A DNA stretch of 64,000 nucleotides from positions 64,001-128,000 of the IMG/VR virus record IMGVR_UViG_3300045988_180675. The stretch is one strand, 5' to 3'. The position numbers and the translations under genes were made by a program. Positions 10,238-53,732 of this stretch are shown here, in pieces. The DNA comes from a virus. The first letter of the stretch is position 1. Each line of letters opens with the position of its first letter. The notes under the pieces are model-generated. The model did no database searches and was not told the origin of the DNA. It saw only the letters and a list, made by a program, of their open reading frames with translations.

Positions 10238-10276
10238 AAGAAAAAAAGCCGTGAATAATCACGACTCTTTTTTTTA
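10238..10276. terminator. intrinsic terminator after tandem-OB ssb
   Basis: Stem GCCGTG/CACGAC at 10248-10266 is flanked by an A-run and a T-run. Confidence 0.55.
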
Positions 10277-11098: not shown

Positions 11099-11164
11099 TT
11101 TATTTTCCTCCTTTGCCCTCTTTTTGGGACTATCATAACAAATGTCTAATTTATTTGATATTTT

Positions 11165-11200
11165 CCATGTCATCAAATAAATACAATTCAATTATGTAAT
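11165..11200 (-). promoter_or_regulatory. class-1 promoter/leader box
   Basis: The plus strand reads CCATGTCATCAAAT (11165-11178) and ATTATG (11191-11196). Confidence 0.5.
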
Positions 11201-12042: not shown

Positions 12043-12073
12043 TAGCATAATCATTAGTGAACGACACGTTCAC
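12043..12073 (+). promoter_or_regulatory. TAGCATAAT -10 followed by perfect palindrome GTGAACG-aca-CGTTCAC (operator candidate) upstream of pilin gene
   Basis: The -10 is at 12043-12051 and the palindrome at 12057-12073. Confidence 0.45.
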
Positions 12074-12110
12074 TTCTTTTATTTATATAAAAAAGAATAG
12101 AAAGGGAAAA

Positions 12111-13859: not shown

Positions 13860-13865
13860 AGAAAT

Positions 13866-13897
13866 AAAAGGAAGTGTAAAAGCTTCCTTTTTTTTAT
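13866..13897 (+). terminator. intrinsic terminator after pilin gene
   Basis: Stem GGAAG/CTTCC is followed by T8. Confidence 0.55.
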
Positions 13898-13929
13898 ATG
13901 TTTTGATGAATATATAGCATAATATAAGC

Positions 13930-26633: not shown

Positions 26634-27245
26634 TTAAAATGGTAAGTCGTCTGCACCTAAGTTAAGACCATATTCTGGCATTGGCTGTGGCTGACTAGGT
26701 TGAGCCATTGGTACAGGCTGTTGATACGGCTGCTGCATTGGTTGTGGAGCAACTTGTGGCTGTGGTTGATACATTGGCTGTGCAGGTTGTTGATACTGTG
26801 GCTGTGGTACGGCTTGAACCTGTGGTTGAGGAATTGGCTGTTGATACTGTTGTTGAGCAACATAAGGATCATACTGTGGTGCCTGTTGAGCTACTGGTTG
26901 AGCCTGTTTGTACTTCTGATTTGTTTCCTTGCTTTCTACAAACTCCTGGGATTCAACAATAACTTCTGTTACATATACATTCTTTTGTGTAGTCTTATCA
27001 ATGTATGTGCGTGTACTTAATCGACCTACGACTGCTAACTTGATTCCCTTCGCAAATGCTTGGGCGGCAAATTCTGCCATCTTGTCAAAACATACACAAC
27101 TAATAAAGTCTGCGGCTGTACCTTCTTGATCCTTTTGTCGAGGACGGTCTACTGCGATCGTATAATTACAGATCTTCTTCTGATTTTGTGTAACGTATAA
27201 CTGTGGATCACGAGATAGTCGTCCGATTAAAATAACCTTGTTCAT
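26634..27245 (-). CDS. ssb: single-stranded DNA-binding protein
   Basis: It has a canonical OB start (MNKVILIGRLSRDPQL), a long Q/P-rich linker and a C-terminal DDLPF. Confidence 0.9.
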   Translation of the reverse strand: MNKVILIGRLSRDPQLYVTQNQKKICNYTIAVDRPRQKDQEGTAADFISCVCFDKMAEFAAQAFAKGIKLAVVGRLSTRTYIDKTTQKNVYVTEVIVESQEFVESKETNQKYKQAQPVAQQAPQYDPYVAQQQYQQPIPQPQVQAVPQPQYQQPAQPMYQPQPQVAPQPMQQPYQQPVPMAQPSQPQPMPEYGLNLGADDLPF

Positions 27246-27351: not shown

Positions 27352-28167
27352 TTAATTTTCCAACCAACTATCGCCACTATTGTAGTCGATTGTTACTCCT
27401 GGCTGCACATTGTAACAGAAGATGTTAAACATAACAGATTCTCCCTTATCCTCTAAAGACATTGCTTCCATTAAGACTCCTCTAGCTACAAGTTCATCTC
27501 CTATAAAAATAGGTGTTACTCTGTATGCTATATGAGAATTTGGATTTGCCTTTAGATATCCTGCGATCAGGTTTTCAAAAGGTAACATTCCATCTACATT
27601 TAGATATCTTGTTCCAGTGATCAAGTTCTTTGGATTTGCATTTTCACCTGTTAATTGATAACCAATAAGGTGACAACGATTATATAAATACTTTCCATTT
27701 ACAAAATCATACTTCGCAATCTTCCAACCTGTTGGCTTGACTTCCTTGATAGAGCCACGAGGCTCTGTAGGCATGATATCTTTACCGATAATGGCAAATG
27801 TTTCTGTACATCTTCCAAGCCGATCAAGTTCTCCATAAGTAGCATAGCTTGTATACTCCTTTGGAACCATGTAATCATCGTAGAAGTATGGTTTGTTATC
27901 ATTGACAACGGTATAAGGCTCCCCAGAAAATTCTGGTAGAGAACTATAGTCGAATGTCGATGGTTCAGAAGATGTTTTTTCTTCCGCCTGCTTTTCAACC
28001 TGCTTTTCTTCTACGGTATTTTCACTTTCTTTTTCTTGGATCGGTGCTAATCTTTCTTTCTTGTCTTCCTTATCTAACACGTATGTTTTTGTGATATATG
28101 CTAATAATAAAGAAATAACAAGAAAGAAAATCTTGGAAATGAATCTGTTTCTTCTATACTTTCTCAT
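27352..28167 (-). CDS. membrane-anchored/secreted DNA/RNA non-specific endonuclease (NucA/EndA-like)
   Basis: It has an N-terminal TM anchor. The core is NRCHLIGYQLTGENANPKNLITGTRYLNVDGMLPFEN. Confidence 0.75.
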   Translation of the reverse strand: MRKYRRNRFISKIFFLVISLLLAYITKTYVLDKEDKKERLAPIQEKESENTVEEKQVEKQAEEKTSSEPSTFDYSSLPEFSGEPYTVVNDNKPYFYDDYMVPKEYTSYATYGELDRLGRCTETFAIIGKDIMPTEPRGSIKEVKPTGWKIAKYDFVNGKYLYNRCHLIGYQLTGENANPKNLITGTRYLNVDGMLPFENLIAGYLKANPNSHIAYRVTPIFIGDELVARGVLMEAMSLEDKGESVMFNIFCYNVQPGVTIDYNSGDSWLEN

Positions 28168-29441: not shown

Positions 29442-30731
29442 TTAGAAATCTTCCATTGGGATATCCACTGGGTAATAAGCATCCATTGGAATATCCTGAT
29501 AATTTGCAGGAGTTGGAACCTGTTGATACATCGGCTGCTGTACTGGAGCATACGGCATAGCTGATTGCATCATTGGTTGCTGATACTGTGGTTGTGGTGC
29601 AACCTGAGTCTGTGGTTGTTGATAAGCCTGCTGAATTGACTGTTGGTATGGCTGTTGCATTGGCTGCTGATATACTGGAGCAGCTGTCTGCTTAGCAGAT
29701 TGTTCCTTTTGTAGCTTTGCTTCCATACGATTCTGACGATCTAAATCATCAGCGATCTGGAACTGTTTTGCTGCCAACATATCTTCAAAACGACGCATGT
29801 GCGTCTCCATATTATGCAGGCATTCAAACCAAGAAGCAGCAGAGAGCTTGAATCTGTTTTCACATTCATCTCGCTTATCAGAACGCATTACATTTAGTGT
29901 ACCAGCATTAGTTCTAACGACCTTAGCCTTATAGCTTTGGACTCTGATCTCAACAGGATAACGGTTTCCAATTGTCCATGTAATATCTAATTCGTTTACA
30001 GGGCAATATTCCTGAGCATTATCCCCATGAATTAATGGTCTTGGACCAGATGAGAAAATCGTTGTTACACCTAATTGTAATTCTTCTGGAGCAACTTCAA
30101 CGGCTGCATCTAAAAGATTGTTTTGAGCCATGAAAATAGCTTCGTCAATTGCCGCAATGAGTTCTCTGTTGGCAGGGAATTTTTCAAGGTTCTTAGCTAA
30201 GAATTCTCTTTGCTTTACAAGAGTATTCATTCCACCTTCTTCCTTGATTACTTCTAAAGGTGTCTTTCCCTTTAAATTTCCAATTTGAAAAGCTTTTCCA
30301 CTTGCAAGTTTTCCAACTTGAGTAGCTGCCTTTTTCTGTGGTATTGGCTTTCCTAGCATCATCGCTGTAATACATCTTGTTCCAAACAATACATTATCAA
30401 TCACGGTAGCAGTTGCCTTCTGCAATTGATACATCTGCGTTGCAAATGGTAATGCAAGCATCGTTTCTGCATTCATTGCTGAACGTGAAGCCTCAATAAC
30501 ACCAAACACTTCCTTTACACGAAGATTGGCTTTAGAGTTATGAGATACTCCATTTTGACTTCCGATGATCGCAAAGATAAAACGAGAGAATTTCTCGTCG
30601 TAGATCTTGTAAGGTGATCCCACCTTTTCTGTATCGATCGGTGTCAAATGCCCTTCTACGGACAATGTTTGAGAGGATGTCTTTGCAGCAAATACCTCTC
30701 GTGGGTAGTTATTCTTCTTCTTTTCTGTCAT
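29442..30731 (-). CDS. unknown protein with SSB-like Q/P-rich linker and acidic-aromatic C-terminal tip (IPMEDF)
   Basis: The first ~330 aa show no recognisable motif. The last ~90 aa mimic the SSB tails of 10274 and 26634. CAGGAGGAAAATG SD. Confidence 0.6.
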   Translation of the reverse strand: MTEKKKNNYPREVFAAKTSSQTLSVEGHLTPIDTEKVGSPYKIYDEKFSRFIFAIIGSQNGVSHNSKANLRVKEVFGVIEASRSAMNAETMLALPFATQMYQLQKATATVIDNVLFGTRCITAMMLGKPIPQKKAATQVGKLASGKAFQIGNLKGKTPLEVIKEEGGMNTLVKQREFLAKNLEKFPANRELIAAIDEAIFMAQNNLLDAAVEVAPEELQLGVTTIFSSGPRPLIHGDNAQEYCPVNELDITWTIGNRYPVEIRVQSYKAKVVRTNAGTLNVMRSDKRDECENRFKLSAASWFECLHNMETHMRRFEDMLAAKQFQIADDLDRQNRMEAKLQKEQSAKQTAAPVYQQPMQQPYQQSIQQAYQQPQTQVAPQPQYQQPMMQSAMPYAPVQQPMYQQVPTPANYQDIPMDAYYPVDIPMEDF

Positions 30732-30891: not shown

Positions 30892-31110
30892 CTAGTCTAA
30901 AAGATCTTCATCGTTTTTATGCATCTCAAAGTATCCCTTTAGTAAATACAATGCAAATGCTCCTAATAGAATATATTTTACAAACCAAGGAATAATGTTT
31001 GCATAGGATAAAATGGCAAGAACGAAGAATAAAGCGACCATAACAACATAGGTCTTTATTCCGTTTCCTTTCTTCATATTGCCAAGTACCTTTTTACTTA
31101 ATTTCTTCAT
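30892..31110 (-). CDS. small two-TM membrane protein
   Basis: It has two hydrophobic segments, an AGGAAAGGAG SD and a TAGCATAAT promoter at about 31126-31134 (rc). Confidence 0.55.
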   Translation of the reverse strand: MKKLSKKVLGNMKKGNGIKTYVVMVALFFVLAILSYANIIPWFVKYILLGAFALYLLKGYFEMHKNDEDLLD

Positions 31111-31698: not shown

Positions 31699-32820
31699 TT
31701 AACACTCAATAAGCTCGTTAATGTATCCACGATCTTCTGTACGAACACAACGAACTTCAACAACTTCACGTTCAGTATTTGCGAACTTAAATGAAGTGAT
31801 GTTGTAGTCAACTTCTGCTGACAACAGATAATCGTAACCATCTAACTTCTCGTCTAAACCATCGATGTAGATAGTACGAGGTGCATGACTAGCACGGCAA
31901 TAAATTAGTCCATTCTTGCCAACAAGAACAACTTCACATGTATTTTCACGCTTGATAGAACGTGTAACATCCATGTCTGTTGCCTGTGTAAATGCATTAC
32001 AACGAACTCGATCATCACCATGCTTTACTGTGATGACTGTAATTAGTTCGCCATTTCCAGCTGTTGGGATACGGTATCCGCTATCCAACATTTCGCCTTC
32101 GCCATCACGAACACCCTTGAAGATCAATTTGAAGATATTGTCTACGCCATCTTCTGTTCTAAAGTCCTCTGTTGAAACAAGAGAAATTAACTGATGGTCA
32201 TTTACACGAACGTAATCGAAGTTGTATTCGCCAGTTTCATATAAAGCCACTACTGCAACGTCAGAAAGAGTAAATGTAACATCTTCTGTCTTCTCGTCCT
32301 TTGTGATAGTATCGTGGATCTCAACCGTGAGCTTTAATAGATTCAATGAAGAATTAATATCTTCGATATCTGATTGAAGCTTCTCAACCTTAACGATCTT
32401 ACTATCGTAACCAATGTTGTCAAAATGATCTCTTGTTAGATCATAATTGTACAGATTACCATTTGTAGATAGTAAGAATAAGGATGTTGAGCCAAAAGCA
32501 ACGATTTCACTAAAGCGTAGTGAACCGATAATCTTTTCACCCAATACTACCAAAGAGCCATCTTCATCGAGATATGCGTCATCTGATGTTAATAGTGGTG
32601 CACGTAGGTCTGGGTTGTTAGTGTTGTTGTAATGTTCATAGGAAATTGTTGGATTTCCATAGTTTGTTACAACGATTGATCCAGCTTCATTAGAAAGATG
32701 CATTACATCTCCCTCTACCTTGTCTAAAGTTAGGTAGTCTCGGCTCAACTGGTCAAACCATTCTGTGCCGATACGTAGTTCTAAACGCTTGTTGATCTTT
32801 TCTTGAATTGTTGTTGTCAT
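31699..32820 (-). CDS. hypothetical protein (373 aa)
   Basis: TAGGAGGAAAAAT SD, with a ~108-nt leader containing two hairpins. No motif was recognised. Confidence 0.6.
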   Translation of the reverse strand: MTTTIQEKINKRLELRIGTEWFDQLSRDYLTLDKVEGDVMHLSNEAGSIVVTNYGNPTISYEHYNNTNNPDLRAPLLTSDDAYLDEDGSLVVLGEKIIGSLRFSEIVAFGSTSLFLLSTNGNLYNYDLTRDHFDNIGYDSKIVKVEKLQSDIEDINSSLNLLKLTVEIHDTITKDEKTEDVTFTLSDVAVVALYETGEYNFDYVRVNDHQLISLVSTEDFRTEDGVDNIFKLIFKGVRDGEGEMLDSGYRIPTAGNGELITVITVKHGDDRVRCNAFTQATDMDVTRSIKRENTCEVVLVGKNGLIYCRASHAPRTIYIDGLDEKLDGYDYLLSAEVDYNITSFKFANTEREVVEVRCVRTEDRGYINELIEC

Positions 32821-32928
32821 AAAATTTAATTTTTCCTCCTATGTCCTCTCTTTTAGGACTCGCTATACTAGCGTCTAATTGTCTTCCTTATTTTTTGAGT
32901 AATGCTTTTTATCATCACCCTTTCTTTC

Positions 32929-32972
32929 TCCATTTCTCATCAAATAATTGGACATAAGTATTATGCAAGAAG
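32929..32972 (-). promoter_or_regulatory. class-1 promoter/leader box
   Basis: The plus strand reads CTCCATTTCTCATCAAAT...TATTATGCAAG. Confidence 0.45.
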
Positions 32973-32981: not shown

Positions 32982-33010
32982 AAAAAAAGACGGAATAACC
33001 GTCTTTCTTT
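32982..33010 (-). terminator. intrinsic terminator after helicase gene
   Basis: Stem GACGG/CCGTC (32989-33003) with a flanking A-run and T-run. Confidence 0.6.
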
Positions 33011-34969
33011 TTATAACTGAGCTAATGCCTCTTCGATTTCCTGTAGGAAACGGTTGTATGTTGGGTTTTCAATCGTTCCAAAAGCGATTTCTTGTCCATA
33101 TAAAGATAGGCTATCACGAGCACGAGTGATCATTACGAATAATAAACGTCGTAGCTCTTCAGCTTTTCTTGTGGATAATTTCTCTTTTTCGAATCCTGAA
33201 ACAGAACCAAATACATGTTTCCATTCTAAACCTTTTGATGAGTGTACTGTAATCAACATTACACCATGACCTAAAACAGAACGCTTGAACATCATGTTAT
33301 CTCCAAACGATAAGAAGTTTGAAACATAATACATGATTTCGTCGGCATCCATATCATTGAACTTTTCGGAAAAATTCAATACTGCTTCATCGCCATGTGA
33401 AATCTCCTGGATAAATTCCATGATCATAAGTTTCTTCGCAGCTGGATCTACAGCTTTGATTGTGTTCACCTTATTTACCACTTCATTTACATAGGTAGAC
33501 ATGATTTCTGGTCCAGCTTCAATAATATCTCCATCAAATAAGGCGTTTGCTACTTCTAGCATATCCATATTTGCATCGGCTGCATCTGGTTTAGAAATTT
33601 CTCGAATAAATTTCAACATCGCTATGACACGGTGGTTTTCAATTAATAACTCTGGGAAACCAAACTTAGATGGAATTCCAAAAGCTGTTAAGCGATCTGC
33701 AACGCTCTTTAACTCTCCCTTTGAGAAAGCTAAGAAAGCAATGTTGTCAGGATCTTCACCTGCATCAATAAGAGCCTTGATATCACGAGCAATCGTATCG
33801 ATTTCTCCTTTTTCAAGATTCTTGCCCATATTTAATTTCGATGGCTTCTGATCGTATTTTCTCTTGAATTTCTGTACCGTTGGCATCATGCCTGGTTCAC
33901 GAGATGCGATAAGAGTCTTATCGATCTTATTTTTATTTCTATCAATAATGATGTTTGCTAACTTAATTACGTTTTCAATACATCTGTAATTGATATCCAT
34001 AAATACATCGTGGATGTCGAGTGTAAGCTTATTTCCATCCTCGTCTTTCTTATATAAATAATCTCCTAAATTGATTAAGAAATCTGGAGAAGTATTCATT
34101 AACGATTCATAGATCGCTTGTGAATCATCTCCCACAACAAGTAAAGACTTAAATGACTTCATGTTGATCAAGTGATTTAATAGCTTCATCTGATCTTCCG
34201 AAGTATCCTGTGCTTCATCAACAATAATGTGAGCAAAGTAGAAATTATCATCTAAAAATGTTGGATTGTCATCTAAAATTTTTAATGCCAATACGATCAT
34301 TTCGTCGAACGTGATTACTGGAGCTTGGAACTCATTATCGAATCCCTTCTTCATAGAATCATATTCTGGATACATCGCAATGATCTTCAAGGCAATATTT
34401 GATGGTAAATCCACTTTTCTGTCTGTTAAGAGTTCCGATACGTCATTATAGGCAATATCAGACAACGCTCTTCCTTCCACAACCAGTCTTGAAACTCGAT
34501 GTAGAATCATAGACATGATATCTAATGCTCCAGTCGTACCGTAACCTGAGCTTGTATAGTTCTGGAAATGAACTCCAGTCCACTCTACGATCTCATGACG
34601 GCGAATCAGAGCATCACACATTGCTCTATCTTGTACTTCATCAATAACTGACGGAATATGTCGATATCCTAATGTGTGCCACATTTTTTTAATAATTTCG
34701 AACTCGAAAGCATGGAAAGTTGTAGCGGTCAAACCACAAACAGGCTTTCCAACCATCTTATTTACACGAGCTGCCATCTCAGAAGCACCATTCTTAGAGA
34801 ATGTACTTAGGAAGATTTCTTCAGGTTTAGCACCGACATCTTCTAAAAGATGCTTAACTCTAGCACTAATGACCTGTGTCTTTCCTGTTCCTGCACCCGC
34901 TACAACTCTGTTGTAAGGATGCGTTGTATTGATGGCTGCTAATTGCCCATCATTAAACTTGATTTCCAT
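33011..34969 (-). CDS. UvrD/PcrA-family SF1 helicase
   Basis: Motifs: AGAGTGKT, IIVDEAQDTS, VGDDSQAIY, NYRC, TVHSSKGLEW, VMITRARDSL. Confidence 0.9.
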   Translation of the reverse strand: MEIKFNDGQLAAINTTHPYNRVVAGAGTGKTQVISARVKHLLEDVGAKPEEIFLSTFSKNGASEMAARVNKMVGKPVCGLTATTFHAFEFEIIKKMWHTLGYRHIPSVIDEVQDRAMCDALIRRHEIVEWTGVHFQNYTSSGYGTTGALDIMSMILHRVSRLVVEGRALSDIAYNDVSELLTDRKVDLPSNIALKIIAMYPEYDSMKKGFDNEFQAPVITFDEMIVLALKILDDNPTFLDDNFYFAHIIVDEAQDTSEDQMKLLNHLINMKSFKSLLVVGDDSQAIYESLMNTSPDFLINLGDYLYKKDEDGNKLTLDIHDVFMDINYRCIENVIKLANIIIDRNKNKIDKTLIASREPGMMPTVQKFKRKYDQKPSKLNMGKNLEKGEIDTIARDIKALIDAGEDPDNIAFLAFSKGELKSVADRLTAFGIPSKFGFPELLIENHRVIAMLKFIREISKPDAADANMDMLEVANALFDGDIIEAGPEIMSTYVNEVVNKVNTIKAVDPAAKKLMIMEFIQEISHGDEAVLNFSEKFNDMDADEIMYYVSNFLSFGDNMMFKRSVLGHGVMLITVHSSKGLEWKHVFGSVSGFEKEKLSTRKAEELRRLLFVMITRARDSLSLYGQEIAFGTIENPTYNRFLQEIEEALAQL

Positions 34970-34998
34970 TTTTTATTTTCCTCCTTAGCCTTAATGGC

Positions 34999-35838
34999 TT
35001 ATTCTTCTTCATCTATAACTGTGATAGGAGCTTTCTTGTATTTGCAAATATTGAAGAATTCACAAAACTTACAATTTTCTTCTAATTGCTCTTCTTCTCC
35101 TACTCCATTAATAAACTTTTGAATGATCGGACTCATATAGGTATCGATTTCAGCAGTGTTTCCCATGTAATCTCCTTCAAGACTTACGATGTTCCCACTT
35201 CCGAAGAATGATTGCTCATTTAAGTTCCATGTTTGGGTATCGGTATCCTTCTTTAGAAAATAGAAAGATGCTGTGATATTTTTGAACCCCATTTGACGAC
35301 CATACAAAATTGTTGCGTACAATTGAAGATCTCTCTTCATTGCGTTCTTATTGCCTTTTTGTGTTACATTTGGTTTACCAGTTTTATAGTAAACAAATTC
35401 CACACGATCTTCGCCATCTATACCTTTAGATACAAACGCTGCATGTGGAGCTACCATAATTGGCTTGAGCTGATCTGATACTGAAACAAGTCGTTTTGCG
35501 AAGAAAGATGGAACACGATGTTCATCTCTTAAATATCGCATGACTCTTCTCCAGTCTGCTAATAAAACCTGCATTTTCTGCTGTGGGTTTAAAAAGCCAG
35601 CCTCAATATAACGGGAATTCATGTATTCCATGATATTCCGATCTTCCCGCTCATTGTAACGAAGTGCTTGCTGGATCGTATCTGCACAAATTTCAGCACG
35701 CTTATAAAAGGTGCCAGTTGGGACTGATGACTTAATAGAATCACCAAGAACCCCTTTGAACGTTCTACGTTTTTTACAAGCTCCATATTCTGATAATGAG
35801 CTTAATCGATCATAATCGATTTTTGTTTGATCACACAT
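34999..35838 (-). CDS. PD-(D/E)XK nuclease of Cas4/AddB type with 4-Cys cluster
   Basis: There is an N-terminal Cys (YGACKK), then D...EFVYYKTGK, then the QLYATILY (QhxxY) motif, then C-terminal CKFCEFFNIC. Confidence 0.8.
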   Translation of the reverse strand: MCDQTKIDYDRLSSLSEYGACKKRRTFKGVLGDSIKSSVPTGTFYKRAEICADTIQQALRYNEREDRNIMEYMNSRYIEAGFLNPQQKMQVLLADWRRVMRYLRDEHRVPSFFAKRLVSVSDQLKPIMVAPHAAFVSKGIDGEDRVEFVYYKTGKPNVTQKGNKNAMKRDLQLYATILYGRQMGFKNITASFYFLKKDTDTQTWNLNEQSFFGSGNIVSLEGDYMGNTAEIDTYMSPIIQKFINGVGEEEQLEENCKFCEFFNICKYKKAPITVIDEEE

Positions 35839-35856
35839 TTTATTTTCCTCCTAATT

Positions 35857-37404
35857 TTACTTGAATACGATCAATTTCTTTAGACATGATGCACTTTCGT
35901 TGTAGACAATGATTTCATCATTTCTAAATCCTACACCGCCACCTGCATGATACCATGTTGAGTCGTATCCTTTTTCCTTAAACATGTTCAATAACTCTGT
36001 TGTCTTTTCTGGAGCACCACCGATGCATCCATTTGGTTCGTATGTGTTACCTGTGGCAACACGATAAACGCCCATAATGGAAATCTTACCATCAATACCT
36101 CTATCTCTTGAATATGTGCTTGAGCAATATCCAGCAGACTTGAGAGGATTGTTAGCAAAGTATGAACCATTACCAAATGCCTTACCACAAATACGTGCGT
36201 TAGGATTTAATAATAGCCCCATCTTAATGATACTAACCCAGTTGCAGTTTGCAGAACCATGGAACAGATCATGCTCAACGCTGTTGAACATTCCGTTTTT
36301 AAGGTATTCTTCATAACGAACAACTTGATCATGTGGTGTGATGTCATATACTTCAACGACATCAATCTTTCCAGAAAGCTTATACTCTTTAATCGTTTGT
36401 TCCATCTCTTCAGGTGTTTCCTTGCGTACAGAGACATTTCCGAATGGACTCTCAAATTTTTCTGTCTTGCTATGTGTTTGTGAAACTAATGCTTCCATAG
36501 AAGACACAATTTTGTTTACCCAATCTAGTTTTGCCTCCATCTGTTTGAACAACTCTTCTTCTGTAAGAGGAATCGTTGGAACATGGAAATCCTTGATTTG
36601 GAAATTCTTACCAACCTTTGGTGCTGCAATTGCAATAAAGTCATCAATACATCCATTGAAAAGCGTTGCATCTGTTAGATTGCACATCTTGTTGTACAAC
36701 TTACGTGCAGATGTCACTTGTCGGCGTGTATATGGTGATGATGAAGAATAGAAATTCATTTCAAAACCACTTTCTGATAACGTCTCTTTCGCAACTTGAA
36801 TCAGCCATCTGTAAAGCGTAACGGCTTCATCATCTGATGTTTCTTCAACTGTTGGCTTTTTGAAGAATGCAGAAATCTTTGATTCATCTTCGTCCTGCTT
36901 TAATTCTTCCGTGTAGTCCTTAAATCCAGCGGCAAGCTTTTGGTAATATCTTAACCAATAAAGTTGCGATGGCTGAGCTTTATGAACCGTACCGTCCTCA
37001 AGTCGATCCATTCCCTTTTTACCAATAATACCAGACACAGCACCAATATTAAGTGTACGTGGTCCCATATTATTTGGGTTAAGGTTGTAACGAGAACGCA
37101 AATTAGTTTCAGCATCAACGTGCCTTAGTAATTTTTGTTCATATAGGCTCTTTGCTAATCTGAAAGTATCAGCAGTGATACGAATAACGATGTTATCGTC
37201 TTCTTCATTTTTGACTCTTTCATAGATTTCTACATGAGCCTCTTTGATTCCATCTTCGCTTTTAAGATGAATTGAGTTTGGAACTGGAAAACCATCTGCG
37301 AACAATGTTTCCGCAACCTTTTTCCATAATTCTCCTTCTTCGTTGATACCAGCTGGGAAATCCAACTGATACACTTTTCCTGTTGTTTCCATCGTAACTT
37401 TCAT
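35857..37404 (-). CDS. PARP-catalytic-domain (H-Y-E ADP-ribosyltransferase) protein with ~370-aa unknown N-terminal region
   Basis: LFHGS...GKAFGNGSYFAN..KSAGYC...RNDEIIVYNESASCLKKLIVFK parallels PARP1 LWHGS...GKGIYFAD..KSANYC...YNEYIVYD...KYLLKLKF. Confidence 0.8.
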   Translation of the reverse strand: MKVTMETTGKVYQLDFPAGINEEGELWKKVAETLFADGFPVPNSIHLKSEDGIKEAHVEIYERVKNEEDDNIVIRITADTFRLAKSLYEQKLLRHVDAETNLRSRYNLNPNNMGPRTLNIGAVSGIIGKKGMDRLEDGTVHKAQPSQLYWLRYYQKLAAGFKDYTEELKQDEDESKISAFFKKPTVEETSDDEAVTLYRWLIQVAKETLSESGFEMNFYSSSSPYTRRQVTSARKLYNKMCNLTDATLFNGCIDDFIAIAAPKVGKNFQIKDFHVPTIPLTEEELFKQMEAKLDWVNKIVSSMEALVSQTHSKTEKFESPFGNVSVRKETPEEMEQTIKEYKLSGKIDVVEVYDITPHDQVVRYEEYLKNGMFNSVEHDLFHGSANCNWVSIIKMGLLLNPNARICGKAFGNGSYFANNPLKSAGYCSSTYSRDRGIDGKISIMGVYRVATGNTYEPNGCIGGAPEKTTELLNMFKEKGYDSTWYHAGGGVGFRNDEIIVYNESASCLKKLIVFK

Positions 37405-37482
37405 TTTATTTTCCTCCTTAATTTACGATATTTTATATATAAAATTTATTCGATGTTTTTTATTTTCCTCTTTTTTAATATT

Positions 37483-37525
37483 CTCCATGCTCATCAAATA
37501 AATACATATATATCTTGCTATAAAA
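37483..37525 (-). promoter_or_regulatory. class-1 promoter/leader box for PARP-nuclease-helicase operon
   Basis: The plus strand reads CTCCATGCTCATCAAAT...TATCTTGCTATAAAA. Confidence 0.45.
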
Positions 37526-37570
37526 AAGACAATAAAAAAAAGAAGGAAATTACTCCTTCTTCTTTTTTTA

Positions 37571-37756
37571 CTACTCGTAAAATTTGTAATGTGTTCTTGC
37601 AAAGTAACGACTTGCCACATAAGCAGAAAATGAGATTAAAGCCATAAAACATAAGAATGTTGTCATTGTTTCCCCAATTCCAACGAAAATACAGGCTACA
37701 AATAGAAGTGCAACACCAACCAGTATGCACTTCAAAGCCAATAAAATTAGCTTCAT
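37571..37756 (-). CDS. small two-TM membrane protein, paralog of 38529..38702
   Basis: It shares ...GIGE(T/N)(M/T)T(T/I)FLCF...AYVAS(R/K)YF with its paralog. Confidence 0.6.
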   Translation of the reverse strand: MKLILLALKCILVGVALLFVACIFVGIGETMTTFLCFMALISFSAYVASRYFARTHYKFYE

Positions 37757-46188: not shown

Positions 46189-46809
46189 CTATTCTTTTGA
46201 CATATATTTTTTGATGTCTATATAATCTTCTACGACTTTTTCTTTTTCCGTAATTTCGGCTCTAAGAGCATCCATTTCTTCATTTATCTCTATGAGTTGT
46301 TTCTTAATTTTCTCTTTTTCAATAGATTCAGTTTGTAGTTCTTCGATTCTTCTTTGTAACATCTTTATCTTCGGTTCGAGATTGATCATCCAAATATTCT
46401 TGTCAGATAACATTTTACTGAAATCACTAATTTCTTTTTGGATCTTTTCAATTTCTTCTGAACCTTTTGTAGCGAACTTGTATTCAGGAGAATCTGTTAT
46501 TTCTTCCAGTGTTTTTCTCTTTAGTACAATTGTGGCTTTGCACTCGGTTACATGACAACTCCTTTCTTCAACGGTATCAAGAACGAAGTTGAAATCTGTA
46601 TAGATGTTCTCAAGTGCGATCTTAAACTCGATAACATCTTTTAATTGTGCATAAAAAAGTATTTTTGCTCCATCAAATATCTTTTGTTCGTAATGTTTAT
46701 CTTCTAAGTAGTTGTGACCTACGATATTTTCGTAATGTGAATGATCGACAATGAGCGGACAAACACCTCGCTCTTTTGCTTTTCTCAAAAAATTTATATC
46801 TATGTTCAT
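46189..46809 (-). CDS. hypothetical protein with C-terminal coiled coil
   Basis: It has a 4-nt overlap with the recG stop. Confidence 0.55.
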   Translation of the reverse strand: MNIDINFLRKAKERGVCPLIVDHSHYENIVGHNYLEDKHYEQKIFDGAKILFYAQLKDVIEFKIALENIYTDFNFVLDTVEERSCHVTECKATIVLKRKTLEEITDSPEYKFATKGSEEIEKIQKEISDFSKMLSDKNIWMINLEPKIKMLQRRIEELQTESIEKEKIKKQLIEINEEMDALRAEITEKEKVVEDYIDIKKYMSKE

Positions 46810-48863
46810 TTATTTGTTCCCTCTTTCTTTTTCTTCTTTTTATCCTTGTAAAGTTCTTCTAACTCTTCATGTTCCTTGTATTCTGCAATAAGGAAATTTC
46901 CGATGTTTTTCTTGATGCATTCTTCTGCCAGCTTTGCAGCCTGTTGAAATAGTTCTGGATTATCCAGCATTTCTTCTACAAACTTGTTAATTCCAGATTG
47001 ATTTTGCCCGATTAAGTCTCCTGTTCCACGTTGACGAAGATCCGCTTCTGCGATCTTAAATCCATCGTTTGTCGCTACCATTGTCTGTAATCGCTCGTTA
47101 TCGGCTTCTTCTGCAATTAAGTAACAATAAGATTGATATGACGATCTGCCTACACGACCTCTTAGCTGGTGAAGTGTTGCTAGTCCGAACCGATTTGCCT
47201 GTTCAACAACCATAACAGTCGCAGATGGAACATTTACACCAACTTCTATTACAGTTGTAGAAATTAGAATATCACAAGTGTGATTATTACTATCTGCAAA
47301 AGCTGATATTGTCTTGGCAACATCTGTTGACTTCATTTTCCCATTTACGACTCCCACGCCAATTCCTCTAGGAGCGAAAAAATCTCTGTATAACTTACTC
47401 ATCTGCTCAATGCTGACAATATCTGTATTGTCATTATCTTCAATTGCAGGGCATACTACGTAACATTGATGACCAGCCTGTATTTGCTCTAGTATAAGAT
47501 TAAATACCTCGTTGTGTTCATCCGAAACCTTTGTGATGATCGGAAGTCTTCCTGCTGGTTTCTGTGTGATCAGCTTAATTTCTTTTCCTTGTCCGTATAG
47601 AACGTTTGCCATTGTACGTGGAATTGGAGTAGCAGACATAGAGATACTATGTACTCCATCCTTAGCCTTCTTGATCAGGGATTCTTTTTGTTCCACGCCA
47701 AATAGATGTTCTTCATCTGTAATAACTGATCCAAGATTATGGTAGACTACATCACTAGAAATGCAGGAGTGAGTTCCTATAATGAAATGAATTTCTCCAG
47801 ACTGGATTCTATTTAAAATTTCGTTTCTTTCTTTTTTAAGAAGTTTGCTATGTAAAAATACACAATTCAAACCGAACCGTTTTGCATATTCAGAGATTTC
47901 TTCATAGTGTTGTCTTGCCAAGATTTCTTTTGGAGCCATCAACACAGACTGGTATCCATTCTCAGCCGAATAAAACATCATTGCAGCGGCAACAATCGTT
48001 TTCCCACATCCAACATCACCTTGCAACAAAATGTTGTTTCTAATGCCGTTTCTGGCGTTTAAAAATATCTCATTTAAGATTGCTGCTTGTCCGCCTTGCC
48101 CTTGTGTCAAAGCAAATGGTAAAGATCTTATAAAGCTCTGTGTTAAAGACCAACTCTTATATTTTAAAGATGTGTTCTTGGGGGTTTCTACCCTATTTCT
48201 CTTTAGGGATAAATTAAAGTAAAGAAGATCATTGAAAAGAATTCTTCTTTTTGCCTCTTCTTCTATTTGTTTGTTTTGCGGATCATGAAGAACTTGTAAT
48301 GCCTGTTTATATGGCATAAAACCAGCAATAAGATGTGGTTCAACAATTTCTTGTTGCATTAACATGAAGTTTTCTCTGATTTTAGCTATTTCTTTTTCGT
48401 CTGCATCCTTTAATGATGGATATACTGTATGAGTATGAGGCTGATATTGGCTTGCTAAATAGATGCCTGTTACATCTACAATAGAATATCCATATTCGTC
48501 ATATTTTGGCTCTCCACATACAACAACATCCTTACCAGAGAAGCTGGCATACATGTTTAGTAGGAATACATTATTAAATAGCACGACTTTATAATCCATA
48601 CTGCCCTTGAAATAAAAAACAAGATAGGTCTTTCCAGTTGCCATTCTCTTCTTTTGTACGCTCACCTGTTTTCCAAGAACCGCACAATGACCATTTGCCT
48701 GCTGAATATCTAATGGCTTTCCGTATCGAATCGCTTTACGTGGGAAGAACTCTAAAAAATCTCTTACTGTAAAGAGGTGTTTTTTATTGAGTGCCGCCAG
48801 TGTTTTTTCTGAGATATTTAATCTTTTTAGATCCACAACTGTTATCCTTTCTATACTATACAT
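46806..48863 (-). CDS. recG: RecG-like branched-DNA helicase
   Basis: There is a wedge-domain N-terminus, then GDVGCGKT, ITDEEHLFG, SATPIPRT and QLRGRVGRS. ATG 48863 sits inside the TATAAT -10. GTG 48836 has an AAAGGA SD and may be the real start. Confidence 0.9.
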   Translation of the reverse strand: MYSIERITVVDLKRLNISEKTLAALNKKHLFTVRDFLEFFPRKAIRYGKPLDIQQANGHCAVLGKQVSVQKKRMATGKTYLVFYFKGSMDYKVVLFNNVFLLNMYASFSGKDVVVCGEPKYDEYGYSIVDVTGIYLASQYQPHTHTVYPSLKDADEKEIAKIRENFMLMQQEIVEPHLIAGFMPYKQALQVLHDPQNKQIEEEAKRRILFNDLLYFNLSLKRNRVETPKNTSLKYKSWSLTQSFIRSLPFALTQGQGGQAAILNEIFLNARNGIRNNILLQGDVGCGKTIVAAAMMFYSAENGYQSVLMAPKEILARQHYEEISEYAKRFGLNCVFLHSKLLKKERNEILNRIQSGEIHFIIGTHSCISSDVVYHNLGSVITDEEHLFGVEQKESLIKKAKDGVHSISMSATPIPRTMANVLYGQGKEIKLITQKPAGRLPIITKVSDEHNEVFNLILEQIQAGHQCYVVCPAIEDNDNTDIVSIEQMSKLYRDFFAPRGIGVGVVNGKMKSTDVAKTISAFADSNNHTCDILISTTVIEVGVNVPSATVMVVEQANRFGLATLHQLRGRVGRSSYQSYCYLIAEEADNERLQTMVATNDGFKIAEADLRQRGTGDLIGQNQSGINKFVEEMLDNPELFQQAAKLAEECIKKNIGNFLIAEYKEHEELEELYKDKKKKKKEGTNK

Positions 48864-48881
48864 TATAGCATATAACAGTAT
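48862..48881 (-). promoter_or_regulatory. class-2 promoter (ATACTGTTAT + TGCTATAAT)
   Basis: The reverse complement reads ATACTGTTATATGCTATAAT. Confidence 0.55.
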
Positions 48882-48909
48882 ATATTGGAAGAAAAAGAAA
48901 AGAGAGGAT

Positions 48910-51090: not shown

Positions 51091-51111
51091 CTAAACCCTC
51101 TCTTTCGTACC

Positions 51112-51134
51112 ATTATCTTAGCATATACTGTTAT
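51112..51134 (-). promoter_or_regulatory. class-2 promoter (box inverted, TAAGATAAT -10)
   Basis: ATACTGTTAT is on the plus strand at 51125-51134. The reverse complement of 51112-51117 is GATAAT. Confidence 0.45.
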
Positions 51135-51156
51135 ATATTACAATAGAAAAACAGGA

Positions 51157-53640: not shown

Positions 53641-53663
53641 GGTTTTTCCTTTCTACCATATCC

Positions 53664-53683
53664 ATTATATCACATAACAGTAT
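53664..53683 (-). promoter_or_regulatory. class-2 promoter (ATACTGTTAT + TGATATAAT)
   Basis: The reverse complement reads ATACTGTTATGTGATATAAT. Confidence 0.55.
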
Positions 53684-53732
53684 ATATTAAAAGAAAAGAA
53701 AATAAAAAAAGAGGGTTTATCCCTCTTCTTTT

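What the first reader, a model, noticed from the sequence alone, without database searches (positions are those of the whole stretch)
33011..37525. Three-gene cassette: PARP-catalytic-domain protein, Cas4-like Fe-S nuclease and UvrD helicase under one promoter
The genes at 35857..37404, 34999..35838 and 33011..34969 are separated by only 18 and 29 nt, and each has a strong SD. A class-1 promoter (37483-37525) precedes them and a terminator (32982-33010) follows.

The first protein carries an unmistakable PARP H-Y-E catalytic core: LFHGS; GKAFGNGSYFAN; KSAGYC; RNDEIIVYN...KKLIVFK. In front of it is about 370 aa with no motif I recognise. I saw no WGR signature.

The other two genes form an AddAB-like helicase-nuclease pair. 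The nuclease has the PD-(D/E)XK and QhxxY motifs and four Cys; the helicase has all the SF1A motifs.

In eukaryotes PARP1 is a DNA-break sensor. Bacterial PARP homologs are rare and poorly understood. I know of no described system that physically couples one to an end-processing helicase-nuclease on a mobile element. It could be a DNA-end sensing or repair module, an anti-phage or anti-plasmid system, or a counter-defence device.
Basis: partly seen in the sequence, partly recalled or inferred. Interest (0 to 1): 0.8.

Follow-up and report, generated by a model that had tools for sequence, protein, structure and literature searches.

The report
Plasmid PARP paired with nuclease-helicase
A large plasmid-like element of a gut or oral Firmicute carries a PARP-type ADP-ribosyltransferase in one operon with a Cas4-like protein and a UvrD helicase, and this pairing recurs across distant relatives, which gives the first concrete, testable partner for the poorly understood bacterial PARPs.

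Summary
Three co-directional genes lie at the stated coordinates, separated by 18 and 29 nt. Each has an AGGAGG ribosome-binding site. The block lies between two terminators and behind an element-specific promoter-like box.

Gene 1 is a genuine PARP. The H-Y-E triad is invariant in 29 homologues. The "unknown" 370 aa resolve into a small N-domain, a WGR-like domain that has lost the W-G-R residues, and the PARP helical regulatory domain. Gene 3 is a complete SF1A UvrD/PcrA-type helicase. Gene 2 has a Cas4/AddB-type fold and the 1+3 cysteine pattern, but it lacks the canonical catalytic acids. It is still under strong purifying selection.

The key new result is comparative. PARP plus (Cas4-like + UvrD) is a conserved module on Firmicute plasmid-like elements, down to about 26% PARP identity. 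It occurs in both gene orders. The nuclease and helicase are usually fused into one 900-1059-aa protein, and the genes often overlap. The nuclease family always sits with UvrD and usually with PARP. The WGR signature has decayed only in PARPs that have this partner.

My best reading is a DNA-end-triggered ADP-ribosylation module that serves the element's DNA maintenance. Defence and counter-defence remain open. I found no description of this pairing in the literature I could search.

The parts
37534..37567 (-). Intrinsic terminator that closes the upstream unit (a 61-aa membrane ORF, 37571..37756). It marks the 5' boundary of the cassette.
   Evidence: Terminator scan: 15-bp stem followed by a T-run. 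Sequence read.
37481..37530 (-). Promoter-like conserved box (…TATAGCAAGATATATATGTATTTATTTGATGAGCATGGAGAA). It is one of about 15 copies in the window, each placed after a terminator and before an RBS.
   Evidence: 6 strict matches against 0.04 expected. About 15 relaxed matches with a conserved upstream part. Not a sigma-70 consensus. Promoter function is inferred.
35857..37404 (-). PARP-type ADP-ribosyltransferase, 515 aa. It comprises an N-terminal alpha/beta domain, a WGR-like domain, a helical regulatory domain (HD) and an ART domain with H382/Y415/E497.
   Evidence: Pfam PARP 5.9e-17. Profile against PDB: PARP1 HD+ART, 1e-21. AF2 pLDDT 79.6. Foldseek top hits are PARP1 and PARP2 WGR-HD-ART chains bound to DNA breaks. 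Triad invariant. dN/dS about 0.04.
37165..37404 (-). PARP residues 1-80: a small alpha/beta domain specific to the long-form (470-550 aa) prokaryotic PARPs. Its function is unknown.
   Evidence: High-confidence AF2 segment. An exhaustive HMMER search with residues 1-175 finds only 40 representative clusters, nearly all PARPs of about 470-550 aa with the match at the N-terminus.
36910..37143 (-). PARP residues about 88-165: a WGR-like beta-sheet domain in which the signature W/Y-G-R is replaced by S-G-I.
   Evidence: Aligns to the Pfam-annotated WGR of P0021. Foldseek alignments to WGR-containing PARP1/2 chains are about 130 columns longer than those to catalytic-only chains. Motif comparison.
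36475..36837 (-). PARP residues about 190-310: helical regulatory (autoinhibitory) domain.
   Evidence: Profile positions 169-462 align contiguously to PARP1 HD+ART. Helices 193-307 in the AF2 model.
35860..36432 (-). PARP residues about 325-515: ART catalytic domain (LFHGS, GSYFAN, NDEIIVYN).
34999..35838 (-). Cas4/AddB-fold nuclease-like protein, 279 aa. It has C21 plus C256-x2-C259-x5-C265. The canonical motif II Asp is His132, and motif III reads Y150-Y-K152. It is homologous to the N-terminal domain of the NUC::UvrD fusion proteins of related elements.
   Evidence: Pfam PDDEXK_1 18.1 bits, below cut-off. AF2 pLDDT 78. Foldseek hits to ACE1 (Cas4 family), SSO0001 Cas4, AddB, AdnA, Exo5 and Dna2. 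Alignments. dN/dS about 0.05.
33011..34969 (-). UvrD/PcrA-type SF1A helicase, 652 aa, with a complete motif set (GAGTGKT, DEAQD, GDDSQAIY, NYRC, TVHSSKGLE, VMITRA).
   Evidence: Pfam UvrD-helicase 1e-39, UvrD_C. NCBIfam best matches PcrA/Rep/UvrD are far below equivalog cut-offs. Motifs. dN/dS about 0.03.
32982..33010 (-). Intrinsic terminator directly after the UvrD stop codon. It marks the 3' boundary of the cassette.
   Evidence: Terminator scan: 12-bp stem followed by a T-run. Sequence read.
32926..32949 (-). Next copy of the promoter-like box. It starts the following unit (373-aa ORF 31699..32820) and so delimits the cassette.
   Evidence: match with a 1-nt insertion. Sequence read.

Best explanation
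The cassette is a two-component DNA-end module carried by a large plasmid-like element. It is written here as three genes because the second component is split.

- **Component A** is a PARP1-3-like enzyme: WGR-like domain, autoinhibitory helical domain, and an ART domain with H-Y-E.
- **Component B** is a UvrD-type motor joined to an N-terminal Cas4/AddB-fold Fe-S domain. It is fused in most relatives. In the window it is a 279-aa protein plus a 652-aa helicase.

**Proposed mechanism (inferred).**
1. Component B loads on DNA ends, or on nicked or forked DNA of the element, and unwinds it.
2. The PARP rides on B, or on the junction B creates, and is switched on there by release of its helical-domain autoinhibition.
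3. The PARP uses NAD+ to ADP-ribosylate itself, its partner and/or the DNA end.
4. This modification controls end processing during replication, repair or establishment of the megaplasmid.

**Shown.** The domain identities, intact catalytic and ATPase motifs, the single transcription unit, conserved and reciprocal co-occurrence with fusion/fission and order permutation, purifying selection, and decay of the WGR signature only in partnered PARPs.

**Inferred.** Physical interaction, activation by the partner, the substrates, and the biological role (maintenance rather than defence).
For: **Functional linkage.**
- The trio or pair occurs in the window and L014, and in L001, L002, L005-7, L019, L020, L029, L032, L034 and pCY360/L054. 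PARP identity falls to about 26% across these.
- Both gene orders occur. L019 and L020 have PARP then NUC::UvrD. L029 and L034 have NUC::UvrD then PARP with 4-nt overlaps.
- NUC and UvrD are fused into 899-1059-aa proteins in seven lineages.
- No third gene is conserved across the loci.

**Reciprocal test.** In 58 nuclease-family loci from metagenomes, UvrD is adjacent or fused in 57 and PARP is present in 45. Most negatives are truncated contigs or the most divergent fusions.

**Phylogenetic structure.** The NJ tree shows one main paired clade with one nested loss, plus separate paired lineages.

**WGR decay.** All 17 unpartnered PARPs outside the paired clade keep YGR[IVML]G. Partnered ones read SGI, SGD, AGE, YGE, YGV, TGD, QNR and KGR, and only L020 keeps YGR. 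This fits a hand-over of DNA sensing to the partner.

**Architecture.** The PARP architecture and HD are supported.

**Context favouring maintenance.**
- The cassette shares the element-wide promoter box with RecJ, SSB, primase and SMC/SbcC-like genes.
- It sits in a long co-directional array of replication and recombination genes.
- The block keeps together in rearranged backbones of elements only 46-55% identical.
- PADLOC has no hit for the PARP or the nuclease.
- A 2017 Cas4 survey noted an unfused Cas4-like+UvrD operon, mostly in Clostridiales, in a non-defence context (PMC5704561).

**Selection and precedent.** dN/dS is 0.03-0.055 for all three genes. Bacterial PARPs from Herpetosiphon and C. 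difficile are active in vitro, and the Herpetosiphon enzyme needs DNA (PMC8120803).
Against: - There is no biochemical or interaction evidence of any kind.
- The WGR-like domain lacks the residues that contact DNA ends in PARP1-3, so DNA-break activation may not apply.
- The nuclease-like protein lacks the canonical catalytic acids, so 'end processing' may be unwinding only.
- No ADP-ribose eraser or reader was found among the window ORFs scanned. That is unusual for a reversible signalling system, although the host genome was not available.
- A PARP of the paired clade (L003/L004) lacks the partner within 8 kb. It sits among anti-defence-like genes: AcrVA2-like, RadC, SSB and DUF3846.
- Seven long-form PARPs and all short-form PARPs lack the partner.
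- An ART plus UvrD-helicase combination has been shown to be an anti-phage system (DarHTG, PMC13069673), so a defence role is a serious alternative.
- The WGR correlation rests on few independent lineages.
Confidence: 0.45

Rival explanations
1. Anti-phage or anti-plasmid defence carried by the plasmid. The helicase/nuclease-like unit recognises the ends or replication intermediates of invading DNA. The PARP is the effector. It would either deplete NAD+ (abortive infection, as SIR2- and TIR-based systems do) or ADP-ribosylate the invader's DNA or proteins.
For: - DarHTG is a validated defence system that combines a DNA ADP-ribosyltransferase with an essential UvrD-family helicase (PMC13069673).
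- The window helicase matches GajB-type UvrD profiles in PADLOC.
- UvrD-Cas4 fusions are associated with restriction-modification and defence contexts (PMC5704561).
- The top structural match of the nuclease-like protein is ACE1, a Cas4-family partner of Argonaute immunity.
- The distribution among PARP homologues is patchy.
- The C. porci locus neighbours TnpB and an R2K ATP-grasp gene.
- No eraser or antitoxin is needed, because the PARP carries its own autoinhibitory domain.
Against: - PADLOC has no hit for the PARP or the nuclease. The GajB hits are generic UvrD similarity, and no GajA is present.
- The module is a near-constant, syntenic backbone feature of two diverged element families rather than a variable island gene.
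- It shares the promoter box with replication and repair genes.
- Its neighbours are DNA-metabolism genes, not recognised defence genes.
- The Cas4 survey judged the Clostridiales Cas4-like+UvrD operon context to be non-defensive.
Confidence: 0.25
2. Counter-defence or host take-over device used early after transfer. The PARP ADP-ribosylates host factors such as AddAB/RecBCD-type enzymes, restriction enzymes or RNA polymerase, or it caps the element's own DNA ends. The helicase/nuclease-like unit protects or processes the incoming DNA.
For: - In L003/L004 the closest unpartnered PARP lies among typical leading-region or anti-defence genes: AcrVA2-like, RadC, SSB and DUF3846.
- Phage ARTs and phage PARPs are proposed to modify host machinery (PMC7824862; PMC9503650).
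- The window region is a one-directional array with several SSB genes and a primase. It resembles an early or leading region.
Against: - Nothing identifies a host target.
- The tight coupling to a helicase, including fusion of the partner genes and translational coupling, is not explained by a simple host-modifying toxin.
- The origin of transfer and the direction of entry are unknown for this element.
- The relaxase assignment is weak (Mob_Pre E 0.007).
Confidence: 0.15
3. There is no functional coupling. Three independent DNA-metabolism genes happen to be neighbours because related elements share synteny.
For: - In L001 and L002 one to three small unrelated ORFs separate the three genes.
- Further downstream genes (p373, p72) are also syntenic in these close relatives.
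- Many PARPs lack the partner.
Against: - The association survives to about 26% PARP identity in unrelated neighbourhoods.
- It appears in both gene orders, with overlapping stop and start codons.
- It is the only conserved linkage across nine loci.
- Reciprocal co-occurrence is 45 of 58.
- WGR decay is correlated with pairing.
Confidence: 0.05

Closest known systems
[quoted passage not shown]
   Same: - It shares the WGR-like, helical regulatory and ART domain order and the H-Y-E triad.
- The best sequence-profile and structure matches are PARP1 and PARP2 chains bound to DNA breaks.
- The pCY360 homologue, annotated WP_013282825.1 in that record, belongs to the same partnered sub-family as the window protein. 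B. proteoclasticus PARP is listed in reviews as UniProt E0S444. I did not check that the two accessions are the same protein.
   Different: - The W/Y-G-R residues are lost (SGI).
- There is an extra 80-aa N-terminal domain.
- There are no zinc fingers or BRCT domain.
- It is encoded on a plasmid-like element.
- It is genetically coupled to a dedicated Cas4-like/UvrD partner, which the papers I could read do not describe.
- Its activity, polymer formation and targets are untested.
Cas4-family/UvrD helicase-nuclease combinations (UvrD-Cas4 fusions; the unfused Cas4-like + UvrD operon of Clostridiales noted by Hudaiberdiev et al. 2017)
   Same: A PF12705-type Cas4-like domain with the 1+3 Cys pattern is linked to a UvrD-type SF1A helicase, either fused or as adjacent genes. 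It is found in Clostridia-type Firmicutes.
   Different: - Here the Cas4-like domain is N-terminal to the helicase.
- The canonical catalytic acids are not conserved.
- A PARP gene is attached in most members, which that survey does not mention.
AddAB / RecBCD / AdnAB end-processing machines
   Same: They combine an SF1A motor with RecB-family nuclease folds. The AddB nuclease domain carries an Fe-S cluster and is a structural match.
   Different: - There is a single motor, with no second helicase-like subunit.
- The nuclease-like domain sits N-terminal to the motor.
- All NCBIfam AddA and RecB equivalog scores are far below cut-off.
- The catalytic motifs are non-canonical.
DarHTG (a DarTG variant with a UvrD-family helicase)
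   Same: An ADP-ribosyltransferase of the H-Y-[EDQ] clade is genetically coupled to an essential UvrD-family helicase.
   Different: - DarT is a small ssDNA-specific ART and has an ADP-ribosylglycohydrolase antitoxin.
- Here the ART is a multi-domain PARP with built-in autoinhibition.
- No antitoxin or eraser is present, and the helicase carries a Cas4-like domain.
- No sequence membership was shown.
NADase plus DNA-motor defence pairs (for example SIR2-HerA) and Gabija (GajA-GajB)
   Same: Conceptually, an NAD+-consuming enzyme or a nuclease is paired with an ATP-dependent DNA motor. The window helicase gives generic GajB profile hits. The SIR2-HerA comparison rests on my own knowledge and was not tested here.
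   Different: There is no SIR2, HerA or GajA homologue, and no PADLOC hit for the PARP or the nuclease.

Membership tests
PARP (PARP1-3-like ADP-ribosyltransferases) | ART fold with the H-Y-E NAD+-binding/catalytic triad | tested here: met
   Pfam PF00644 scores 62.3 bits against a cut-off of 26.7. H382, Y415 and E497 are invariant in 29 homologues. Foldseek gives PARP1, PARP2 and PARP3 catalytic domains at E 1e-15 to 1e-18.
PARP (PARP1-3-like ADP-ribosyltransferases) | Helical regulatory (autoinhibitory) domain immediately N-terminal to the ART domain | tested here: met
   The family profile aligns contiguously to PARP1 HD+ART, profile positions 169-462, E 1.3e-21. Helices 193-307 appear in the AF2 model. 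The Pfam PARP_reg model itself did not hit.
PARP (PARP1-3-like ADP-ribosyltransferases) | WGR domain fold | tested here: inconclusive
   Residues about 88-165 align to the Pfam-annotated WGR of P0021. Foldseek alignments to WGR-HD-ART chains are about 130 columns longer than those to catalytic-only chains. There is no direct Pfam WGR hit, and the domain was not searched on its own.
PARP (PARP1-3-like ADP-ribosyltransferases) | Conserved W/Y-G-R residues that engage the DNA break and the HD | tested here: not met
   The window has S-G-I. Relatives with the partner gene also have degraded motifs. Unpartnered relatives keep Y-G-R.
PARP (PARP1-3-like ADP-ribosyltransferases) | DNA-stimulated (poly)ADP-ribosylation activity | not testable with these tools
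   This needs a biochemical assay.
Cas4 / RecB-family PD-(D/E)XK nucleases (PF12705) | RecB-like nuclease fold | tested here: met
   Foldseek hits: ACE1 (Cas4 family) 2.8e-5, SSO0001 Cas4 5.4e-4, AddB 8.9e-4, plus AdnA, Exo5 and Dna2. TM-scores are only about 0.4-0.5. The Pfam PDDEXK_1 score of 18.1 is below the cut-off of 22.
Cas4 / RecB-family PD-(D/E)XK nucleases (PF12705) | Four-cysteine Fe-S cluster pattern (one N-terminal Cys plus C-x2-C-x5-C) | tested here: met
   C21 plus C256, C259 and C265. C21, C259 and C265 are invariant. C256 is missing only in L001 and L002. Cluster binding itself was not tested.
Cas4 / RecB-family PD-(D/E)XK nucleases (PF12705) | Catalytic motif II Asp and motif III (D/E)-x-K | tested here: not met
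   The window has A-P-H132 where fused relatives have K-P-D. The motif III position reads Y150-Y-K152. No family member has an acid at -2 from the Lys, and the Lys is Arg or Gln in three members. The assignment rests on alignment and on where the Pfam match falls, not on a solved active site.
Cas4 / RecB-family PD-(D/E)XK nucleases (PF12705) | Q-h-x-x-Y motif | tested here: not met
   The window has Q172-L-Y-A-T. The Gln is Q, R, E, M or K across the family.
UvrD/PcrA/Rep SF1A helicases | Seven SF1A helicase motifs and the UvrD N- and C-terminal domains | tested here: met
   PF00580 137 bits, PF13361, PF13538. Motifs found: GAGTGKT, TFHAF, DEAQD, GDDSQAIY, NYRC, TVHSSKGLE, VMITRA.
UvrD/PcrA/Rep SF1A helicases | Orthology to a named cellular helicase (PcrA, UvrD, Rep, AddA, RecB) | tested here: not met
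   The best NCBIfam score is 162 bits for PcrA against a cut-off of 911. All other scores are also far below their cut-offs.
AddAB-type helicase-nuclease | Two large subunits: AddA (helicase plus C-terminal nuclease) and AddB (inactive helicase plus Fe-S nuclease) | tested here: not met
   There is a single motor. The nuclease-like domain is N-terminal or a separate 279-aa protein. There is no AddA or AddB equivalog.
Known anti-phage systems (PADLOC-DB v2, e.g. Gabija) | All components match system profiles (e.g. GajA together with GajB) | tested here: not met
   Only generic GajB and RT-associated helicase hits were found for the UvrD protein. The PARP and the nuclease gave nothing.
DarHTG | DarT-family ART, plus a UvrD-like helicase lacking 2B, plus an ADP-ribosylglycohydrolase antitoxin | tested here: not met
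   The ART here is PARP-family. No third conserved gene exists. No eraser was found among the window ORFs scanned. The comparison is by function only.

The most novel reading that the evidence does not exclude
In this sub-family, the Cas4-like/UvrD motor has taken over DNA-end recognition from the decayed WGR domain. It allosterically switches on the PARP. This would make a self-contained prokaryotic 'DNA-end to ADP-ribosylation' machine on plasmids. It would be the first physiological partner and trigger for a bacterial PARP. It could be a repair or establishment signal, or an NAD+-burning immune effector. It would also be a plausible evolutionary precursor of the eukaryotic link between PARP and DNA-break processing.
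Probability: 0.35. Interest if true: 0.85.

Novelty: new variant of a known kind. Interest (0 to 1): 0.72.

Why it matters
Bacterial and phage PARPs have been catalogued for over a decade. Two are active in vitro. Reviews still list their targets and function as unknown (PMC8120803, PMC4245714).

This work identifies a conserved, dedicated genetic partner: a Cas4-like/UvrD DNA motor. It also shows a matching change in the PARP's DNA-sensing domain. Together these turn an open question into specific experiments. Does the motor activate the PARP at DNA ends? What gets ADP-ribosylated? Does this serve plasmid maintenance or immunity?

The module occurs in cultured strains (Butyrivibrio proteoclasticus B316 pCY360 and Clostridium porci), so the tests are feasible.

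If confirmed, it would link ADP-ribosylation to DNA-end processing outside eukaryotes. Depending on the outcome, it would add a new kind of plasmid maintenance, defence or counter-defence function.

Tried and rejected
- **Nucleotide searches.** Searching the cassette against PLSDB plasmids and GenBank phages gave no match.
- **Defence profiles.** PADLOC gave nothing for the PARP or the nuclease.
- **NCBIfam.** It gave nothing for the PARP, the nuclease or the two downstream ORFs.
- **PDB sequence search.** A profile search with the nuclease family gave no hit even at E 10. Only fold comparison placed it.
- **The claimed promoter.** The sigma-70 scan gave no site at 37483-37525 and fewer sites overall than shuffles. 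I replaced the claim with the recurring-box observation.
- **A third conserved component.** An all-against-all ORF comparison over nine loci found none. The extra clusters were antisense shadow ORFs inside the helicase gene, or genes shared only by the three closest elements.
- **An eraser or reader.** I looked for Macro, PARG, ARH or NUDIX domains among the window ORFs and found none.
- **A substitute partner.** PARP-less NUC::UvrD fusions have no consistent replacement next to them, only T2SSE ATPases, VWA and RNase T. Unpartnered PARPs have HD, HNH, integrase, Thg1 and DUF5662 neighbours with no pattern.
- **A phage origin.** IMG/VR held only three distant PARP loci and none of this family. 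The window has plasmid-type genes and no recognisable virion genes.
- **'AddAB-like'.** I rejected it as a membership claim.
- **Unavailable paper.** The Aravind et al. 2015 review of ART natural history (PMC6126934) is not in the library. Prior mention of this neighbourhood there cannot be excluded.

Full report
**1. The observation**

The intergenic gaps are 18 and 29 nt. Each start codon is preceded by AGGAGGAAAATAAA.

An intrinsic terminator follows the last gene at 33010..32982. Another, at 37567..37534, ends the preceding unit. Terminator-like sites are enriched in the scanned region, with 14 found against 3.3 expected.

The sigma-70 scan does not detect the claimed promoter at 37483-37525. 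That position does hold a 20-nt box, TATTTGATGAGCATGGAGAA. Six strict copies occur in the window against 0.04 expected, all on the gene strand. About 15 relaxed copies also occur. Each of these follows a terminator hairpin, has a conserved upstream part (…ACATAATAT…TGTA…), and is followed by an RBS and a start codon.

The cassette lies between two consecutive copies (37481-37504 and 32926-32949) with none inside. The element's own punctuation therefore defines it as one transcription unit. Promoter function of the box is inferred, not shown.

**2. What the three proteins are**

*Gene 1 is a PARP.*
- Pfam PARP scores E 5.9e-17, above the cut-off.
- A 20-sequence family alignment shows H382 and Y415 invariant and E497 nearly so. 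All three are invariant in a wider set of 29 sequences.
- A profile of the family matches PARP1 across the helical regulatory domain and the ART domain in one stretch (E 1.3e-21).
- The AlphaFold model has pLDDT 79.6 and pTM 0.76.
- Its best PDB matches are the WGR-HD-ART chains of PARP1 and PARP2 bound to DNA breaks (4opx, 4dqy, 7aeo, 6x0l; E about 1e-18). These alignments exceed 500 columns, against about 370 for catalytic-only entries.
- Its best viral match is a 415-aa phage PARP (TM 0.64/0.77).

- an N-terminal alpha/beta domain (residues 1-80);
- a WGR-like domain (about 88-165);
- the helical regulatory domain (about 190-310).

The literal W-G-R residues are indeed absent; the window has S-G-I. 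An exhaustive HMMER search of 1.84 billion representatives with residues 1-175 found only 40 clusters. Nearly all are PARPs of about 470-550 aa with this region at the N-terminus. The family is rare and self-contained.

*Gene 3 is a complete UvrD/PcrA-type SF1A helicase.* PF00580 scores 1e-39 and all motifs are present. It is not an orthologue of PcrA, UvrD, Rep, AddA or RecB, because all NCBIfam equivalog scores fall far below their cut-offs.

*Gene 2 is less straightforward.*
- Pfam PDDEXK_1 scores below its cut-off (18.1 against 22 bits).
- Neither PADLOC, NCBIfam, PHROGs nor the PDB sequence search gives a hit.
- The AlphaFold model (pLDDT 78) matches Cas4-family ACE1, Cas4 SSO0001, AddB, AdnA, Exo5 and Dna2 nuclease domains, with moderate TM-scores of about 0.4-0.5.
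- It has the Cas4/AddB cysteine pattern: C21 plus C256-x2-C259-x5-C265.
- In a ten-member alignment the canonical catalytic positions are not conserved. Fused relatives have K-P-D where the window has A-P-H and L001/L002 have Q/R-P-T.
- The position of the (D/E)-x-K acid is Y, L, I, K, T, R, F or C across members. The Lys is Arg or Gln in three members. The Gln of QhxxY also varies.
- Other residues are invariant: R101, Y102, E106, R108, D200, N216 and D232.
- The gene is under strong purifying selection (dN/dS about 0.05).

The protein is therefore functional. Whether it cuts DNA, or instead serves as an Fe-S end-binding or strand-separating module, is open.

**3. The comparative result**

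The PARP family is small, with 21 clusters in the word-indexed search. Its neighbourhoods were examined through encoding contigs, genome and viral scans, tblastn and PLSDB.

The nuclease-like and helicase genes accompany the PARP in these loci:

| Locus | Arrangement |
|---|---|
| Window lineage (L014, L055-L069) | PARP, NUC, UvrD adjacent |
| L001, L002 | Same order, with small ORFs inserted |
| L005-7 | PARP followed by a 957-aa NUC::UvrD fusion |
| L019 (Bulleidia MAG), L020 | PARP, then fusion |
| L029, L034 (Clostridium porci isolate) | Fusion first, then PARP, with 4-nt overlaps |
| L032 | Fusion, a 2-kb gap, then PARP |
| pCY360 of Butyrivibrio proteoclasticus B316 | PARP WP_013282825.1, then 924-aa helicase WP_013282824.1 |

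PARP identity to the window falls to about 26% across these loci. An all-against-all ORF comparison over nine loci finds only these two components conserved.

The reciprocal scan with the nuclease alignment returned 58 metagenomic loci. UvrD is adjacent or fused in 57, and PARP is present in 45. The negatives are mostly contigs cut close to the gene, or the most divergent fusions at about 26-32% identity. Those divergent fusions sit in similar plasmid-like contexts without any substitute partner.

Not all PARPs are partnered:
- a clade of long-form PARPs (L021-L028) lacks the partner;
- all short-form PARPs of about 400 aa lack it;
- L003/L004, nested within the paired clade, lack it within 8 kb.

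Unpartnered PARPs have no consistent neighbour.

One correlated feature stands out. All 17 unpartnered PARPs outside the paired clade keep the bacterial form of the WGR signature, Y-G-R-[IVML]-G. In partnered PARPs it reads SGI, SGD, AGE, YGE, YGV, TGD, QNR or KGR, and only L020 keeps YGR. The variety of replacements within the paired clade points to relaxed constraint rather than one inherited change. However, the number of independent lineages is small, and the tree is a quick NJ tree.

**4. Context**

The window is a low-GC (about 35%) plasmid-like element. It encodes the following:
- replication and recombination: Pol III alpha, a DnaG-DUF3854 primase, two tandem RecD2-like helicases, a RecG-like helicase, an SMC/SbcC-like ATPase, RecJ, a NucA-like nuclease and several SSBs;
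- partition, export and surface functions: an actin-like partition protein, a T2SSE ATPase, SecA, and a SpaA-type pilin with sortase;
- other: a PhoH-PIN protein and a weak Mob_Pre match.

The host is probably Solobacterium, since a MAG contig carries a 98% identical PARP. Related contigs are 160-206 kb for the window type and 300-313 kb for the L002 type.

The cassette shares the promoter-like box with RecJ, SSB, primase and the SMC-like gene. In C. porci the module lies near a Rep_3 initiator, TnpB and an R2K ATP-grasp gene. I found no Macro, PARG or ARH domain among the window ORFs I scanned.

**5. How it most likely works**

*Shown:*
- domain identities;
- an intact catalytic triad and intact ATPase motifs;
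- a single operon;
- conserved reciprocal co-occurrence, with fusion/fission, order permutation and overlapping genes;
- purifying selection on all three genes;
- WGR decay restricted to partnered PARPs.

*Inferred:*
- The Cas4-like/UvrD unit engages DNA ends or junctions.
- The PARP is held off by its helical domain, as in PARP1-3 (established knowledge of that family), and is activated in that complex rather than through its own WGR contacts.
- It then ADP-ribosylates itself, its partner or the DNA end to regulate processing.

I favour a role in the element's own replication, repair or establishment (confidence 0.45). The reasons are the backbone-like conservation, the shared promoter box with replication and repair genes, and the DNA-metabolism neighbourhood.

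The main rival is plasmid-borne defence (0.25). It is made credible by DarHTG, where a DNA ADP-ribosyltransferase needs a UvrD-family helicase for anti-phage activity (PMC13069673). The defence associations of UvrD-Cas4 fusions point the same way (PMC5704561).

Counter-defence (0.15) is suggested by the L003/L004 neighbourhood, which contains AcrVA2-like, RadC, SSB and DUF3846 genes.

Pure synteny without functional coupling (0.05) is largely excluded.

**6. Comparison with what is known, and novelty**

Bacterial PARPs are a known kind. Seventy-two sequences have been catalogued, two have in-vitro activity, B. proteoclasticus PARP is listed, and targets are "unknown" (PMC5966428, PMC8120803, PMC4245714).

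Phage PARPs are known (PMC7824862, PMC9503650). Cas4-like/UvrD links are known, including an unfused Clostridiales operon judged non-defensive.

None of the papers I could search or read links a PARP to such a helicase/nuclease pair. One key review is not in the library, so prior mention there cannot be excluded.

I classify the finding as a new variant of a known kind: a partnered sub-family of prokaryotic PARPs. It is not an AddAB member, not a canonical Cas4 nuclease by motif, and not a member of any PADLOC system.

**7. Verdict**

- it is a two-component module;
- the PARP has a WGR-like domain and a helical regulatory domain;
- the "nuclease" is non-canonical, and the pair is not AddAB-like.

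Interest is 0.72. A specialist in ADP-ribosylation or mobile-element biology would find the conserved PARP-motor coupling and the WGR decay surprising. It also makes the long-standing question of what bacterial PARPs do directly testable in cultured strains.

Noticed in passing
window, minus strand: 10188, 11161, 20216, 25395, 26544, 30779, 32926, 37481, 38256, 38732, 40006, 40579, 41401, 44276, 55842 (start of each box): About 15 copies of one module: a terminator hairpin with T-run, then a conserved box of about 45 nt (…ACATAATAT…TGTA…TTATTTGATGAnCATGGAGAA), then 20-60 nt, then AGGAGG and a start codon. The module precedes RecJ, SSB, primase, the SMC-like gene, PARP and many small ORFs. It does not fit the sigma-70 consensus. 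It may be an element-specific promoter or regulon signal, possibly read by an element-encoded factor.
   Followed up: partly
window 29442..30731 (-): A 429-aa ORF with a Gln/Pro-rich linker and an acidic C-terminal tail (…DIPMEDF) like that of SSB proteins. It has no Pfam, PHROG or NCBIfam hit. It may be an SSB-tail mimic or a novel ssDNA-binding protein. At least two other SSB-like genes in the window (10274..11191, 26634..27245) carry DDLPF tails.
   Followed up: partly
window 46806..55811 (-): A run of DNA-repair-type genes on the element: a RecG-like helicase, two tandem RecD2-like helicases and an SMC/SbcC-like ATPase. RecJ (8422..10167), a NucA-like nuclease (27352..28167) and Pol III alpha (62330..63955, cut by the window end) lie elsewhere. 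This is an unusually complete private DNA-metabolism kit for a plasmid-like element.
   Followed up: partly
window 20938..23427 (-); 12057..14796 (+): The element encodes a full-length SecA homologue, and also a SpaA-type pilin with an LPXTG motif and a sortase. This may be a dedicated export and adhesion system, for example for mating-pair contact. L002-type elements carry the SecA as well.
   Followed up: no
window 31699..32820 (-) and 30892..31110 (-); L001 13647-15198; L002 15903-17458: A 373-aa protein and a 72-aa membrane protein of unknown function stay downstream of the UvrD gene in the window, L001 and L002 lineages only. They may be lineage-specific accessories of the module or simply syntenic neighbours.
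   Followed up: partly
L003 1-17548, L004: The closest unpartnered PARP (52% identity) sits among genes typical of plasmid leading or anti-defence regions: AcrVA2-like, DUF3846, SSB, RadC, HipA_C and an acetyltransferase. No nuclease or UvrD gene lies within 8 kb.
   Followed up: partly
L008/L009/L011 (short-form PARPs, about 400 aa): Short WGR-HD-ART PARPs on contigs of up to 279 kb lie next to an anaerobic ribonucleotide reductase (NrdD) and its activase. In L008, L009 and L010, RNase T is also present; RecA appears in L008 and L009. In L008 a Macro-domain and a Fic gene lie about 6 kb away. This is a different PARP neighbourhood, possibly on phage-like elements.
   Followed up: no
L001 3352-4584; L034 2090-3427 and 5058-6428: TnpB/IS605-family genes lie within a few kb of the PARP module in two unrelated loci.
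   Followed up: no
L054 (pCY360) 7820-8323: A DUF3990 gene lies just upstream of the PARP in B. proteoclasticus pCY360. From memory, DUF3990 belongs to the ADP-ribosyl-transferase clan. I did not verify this.
   Followed up: no
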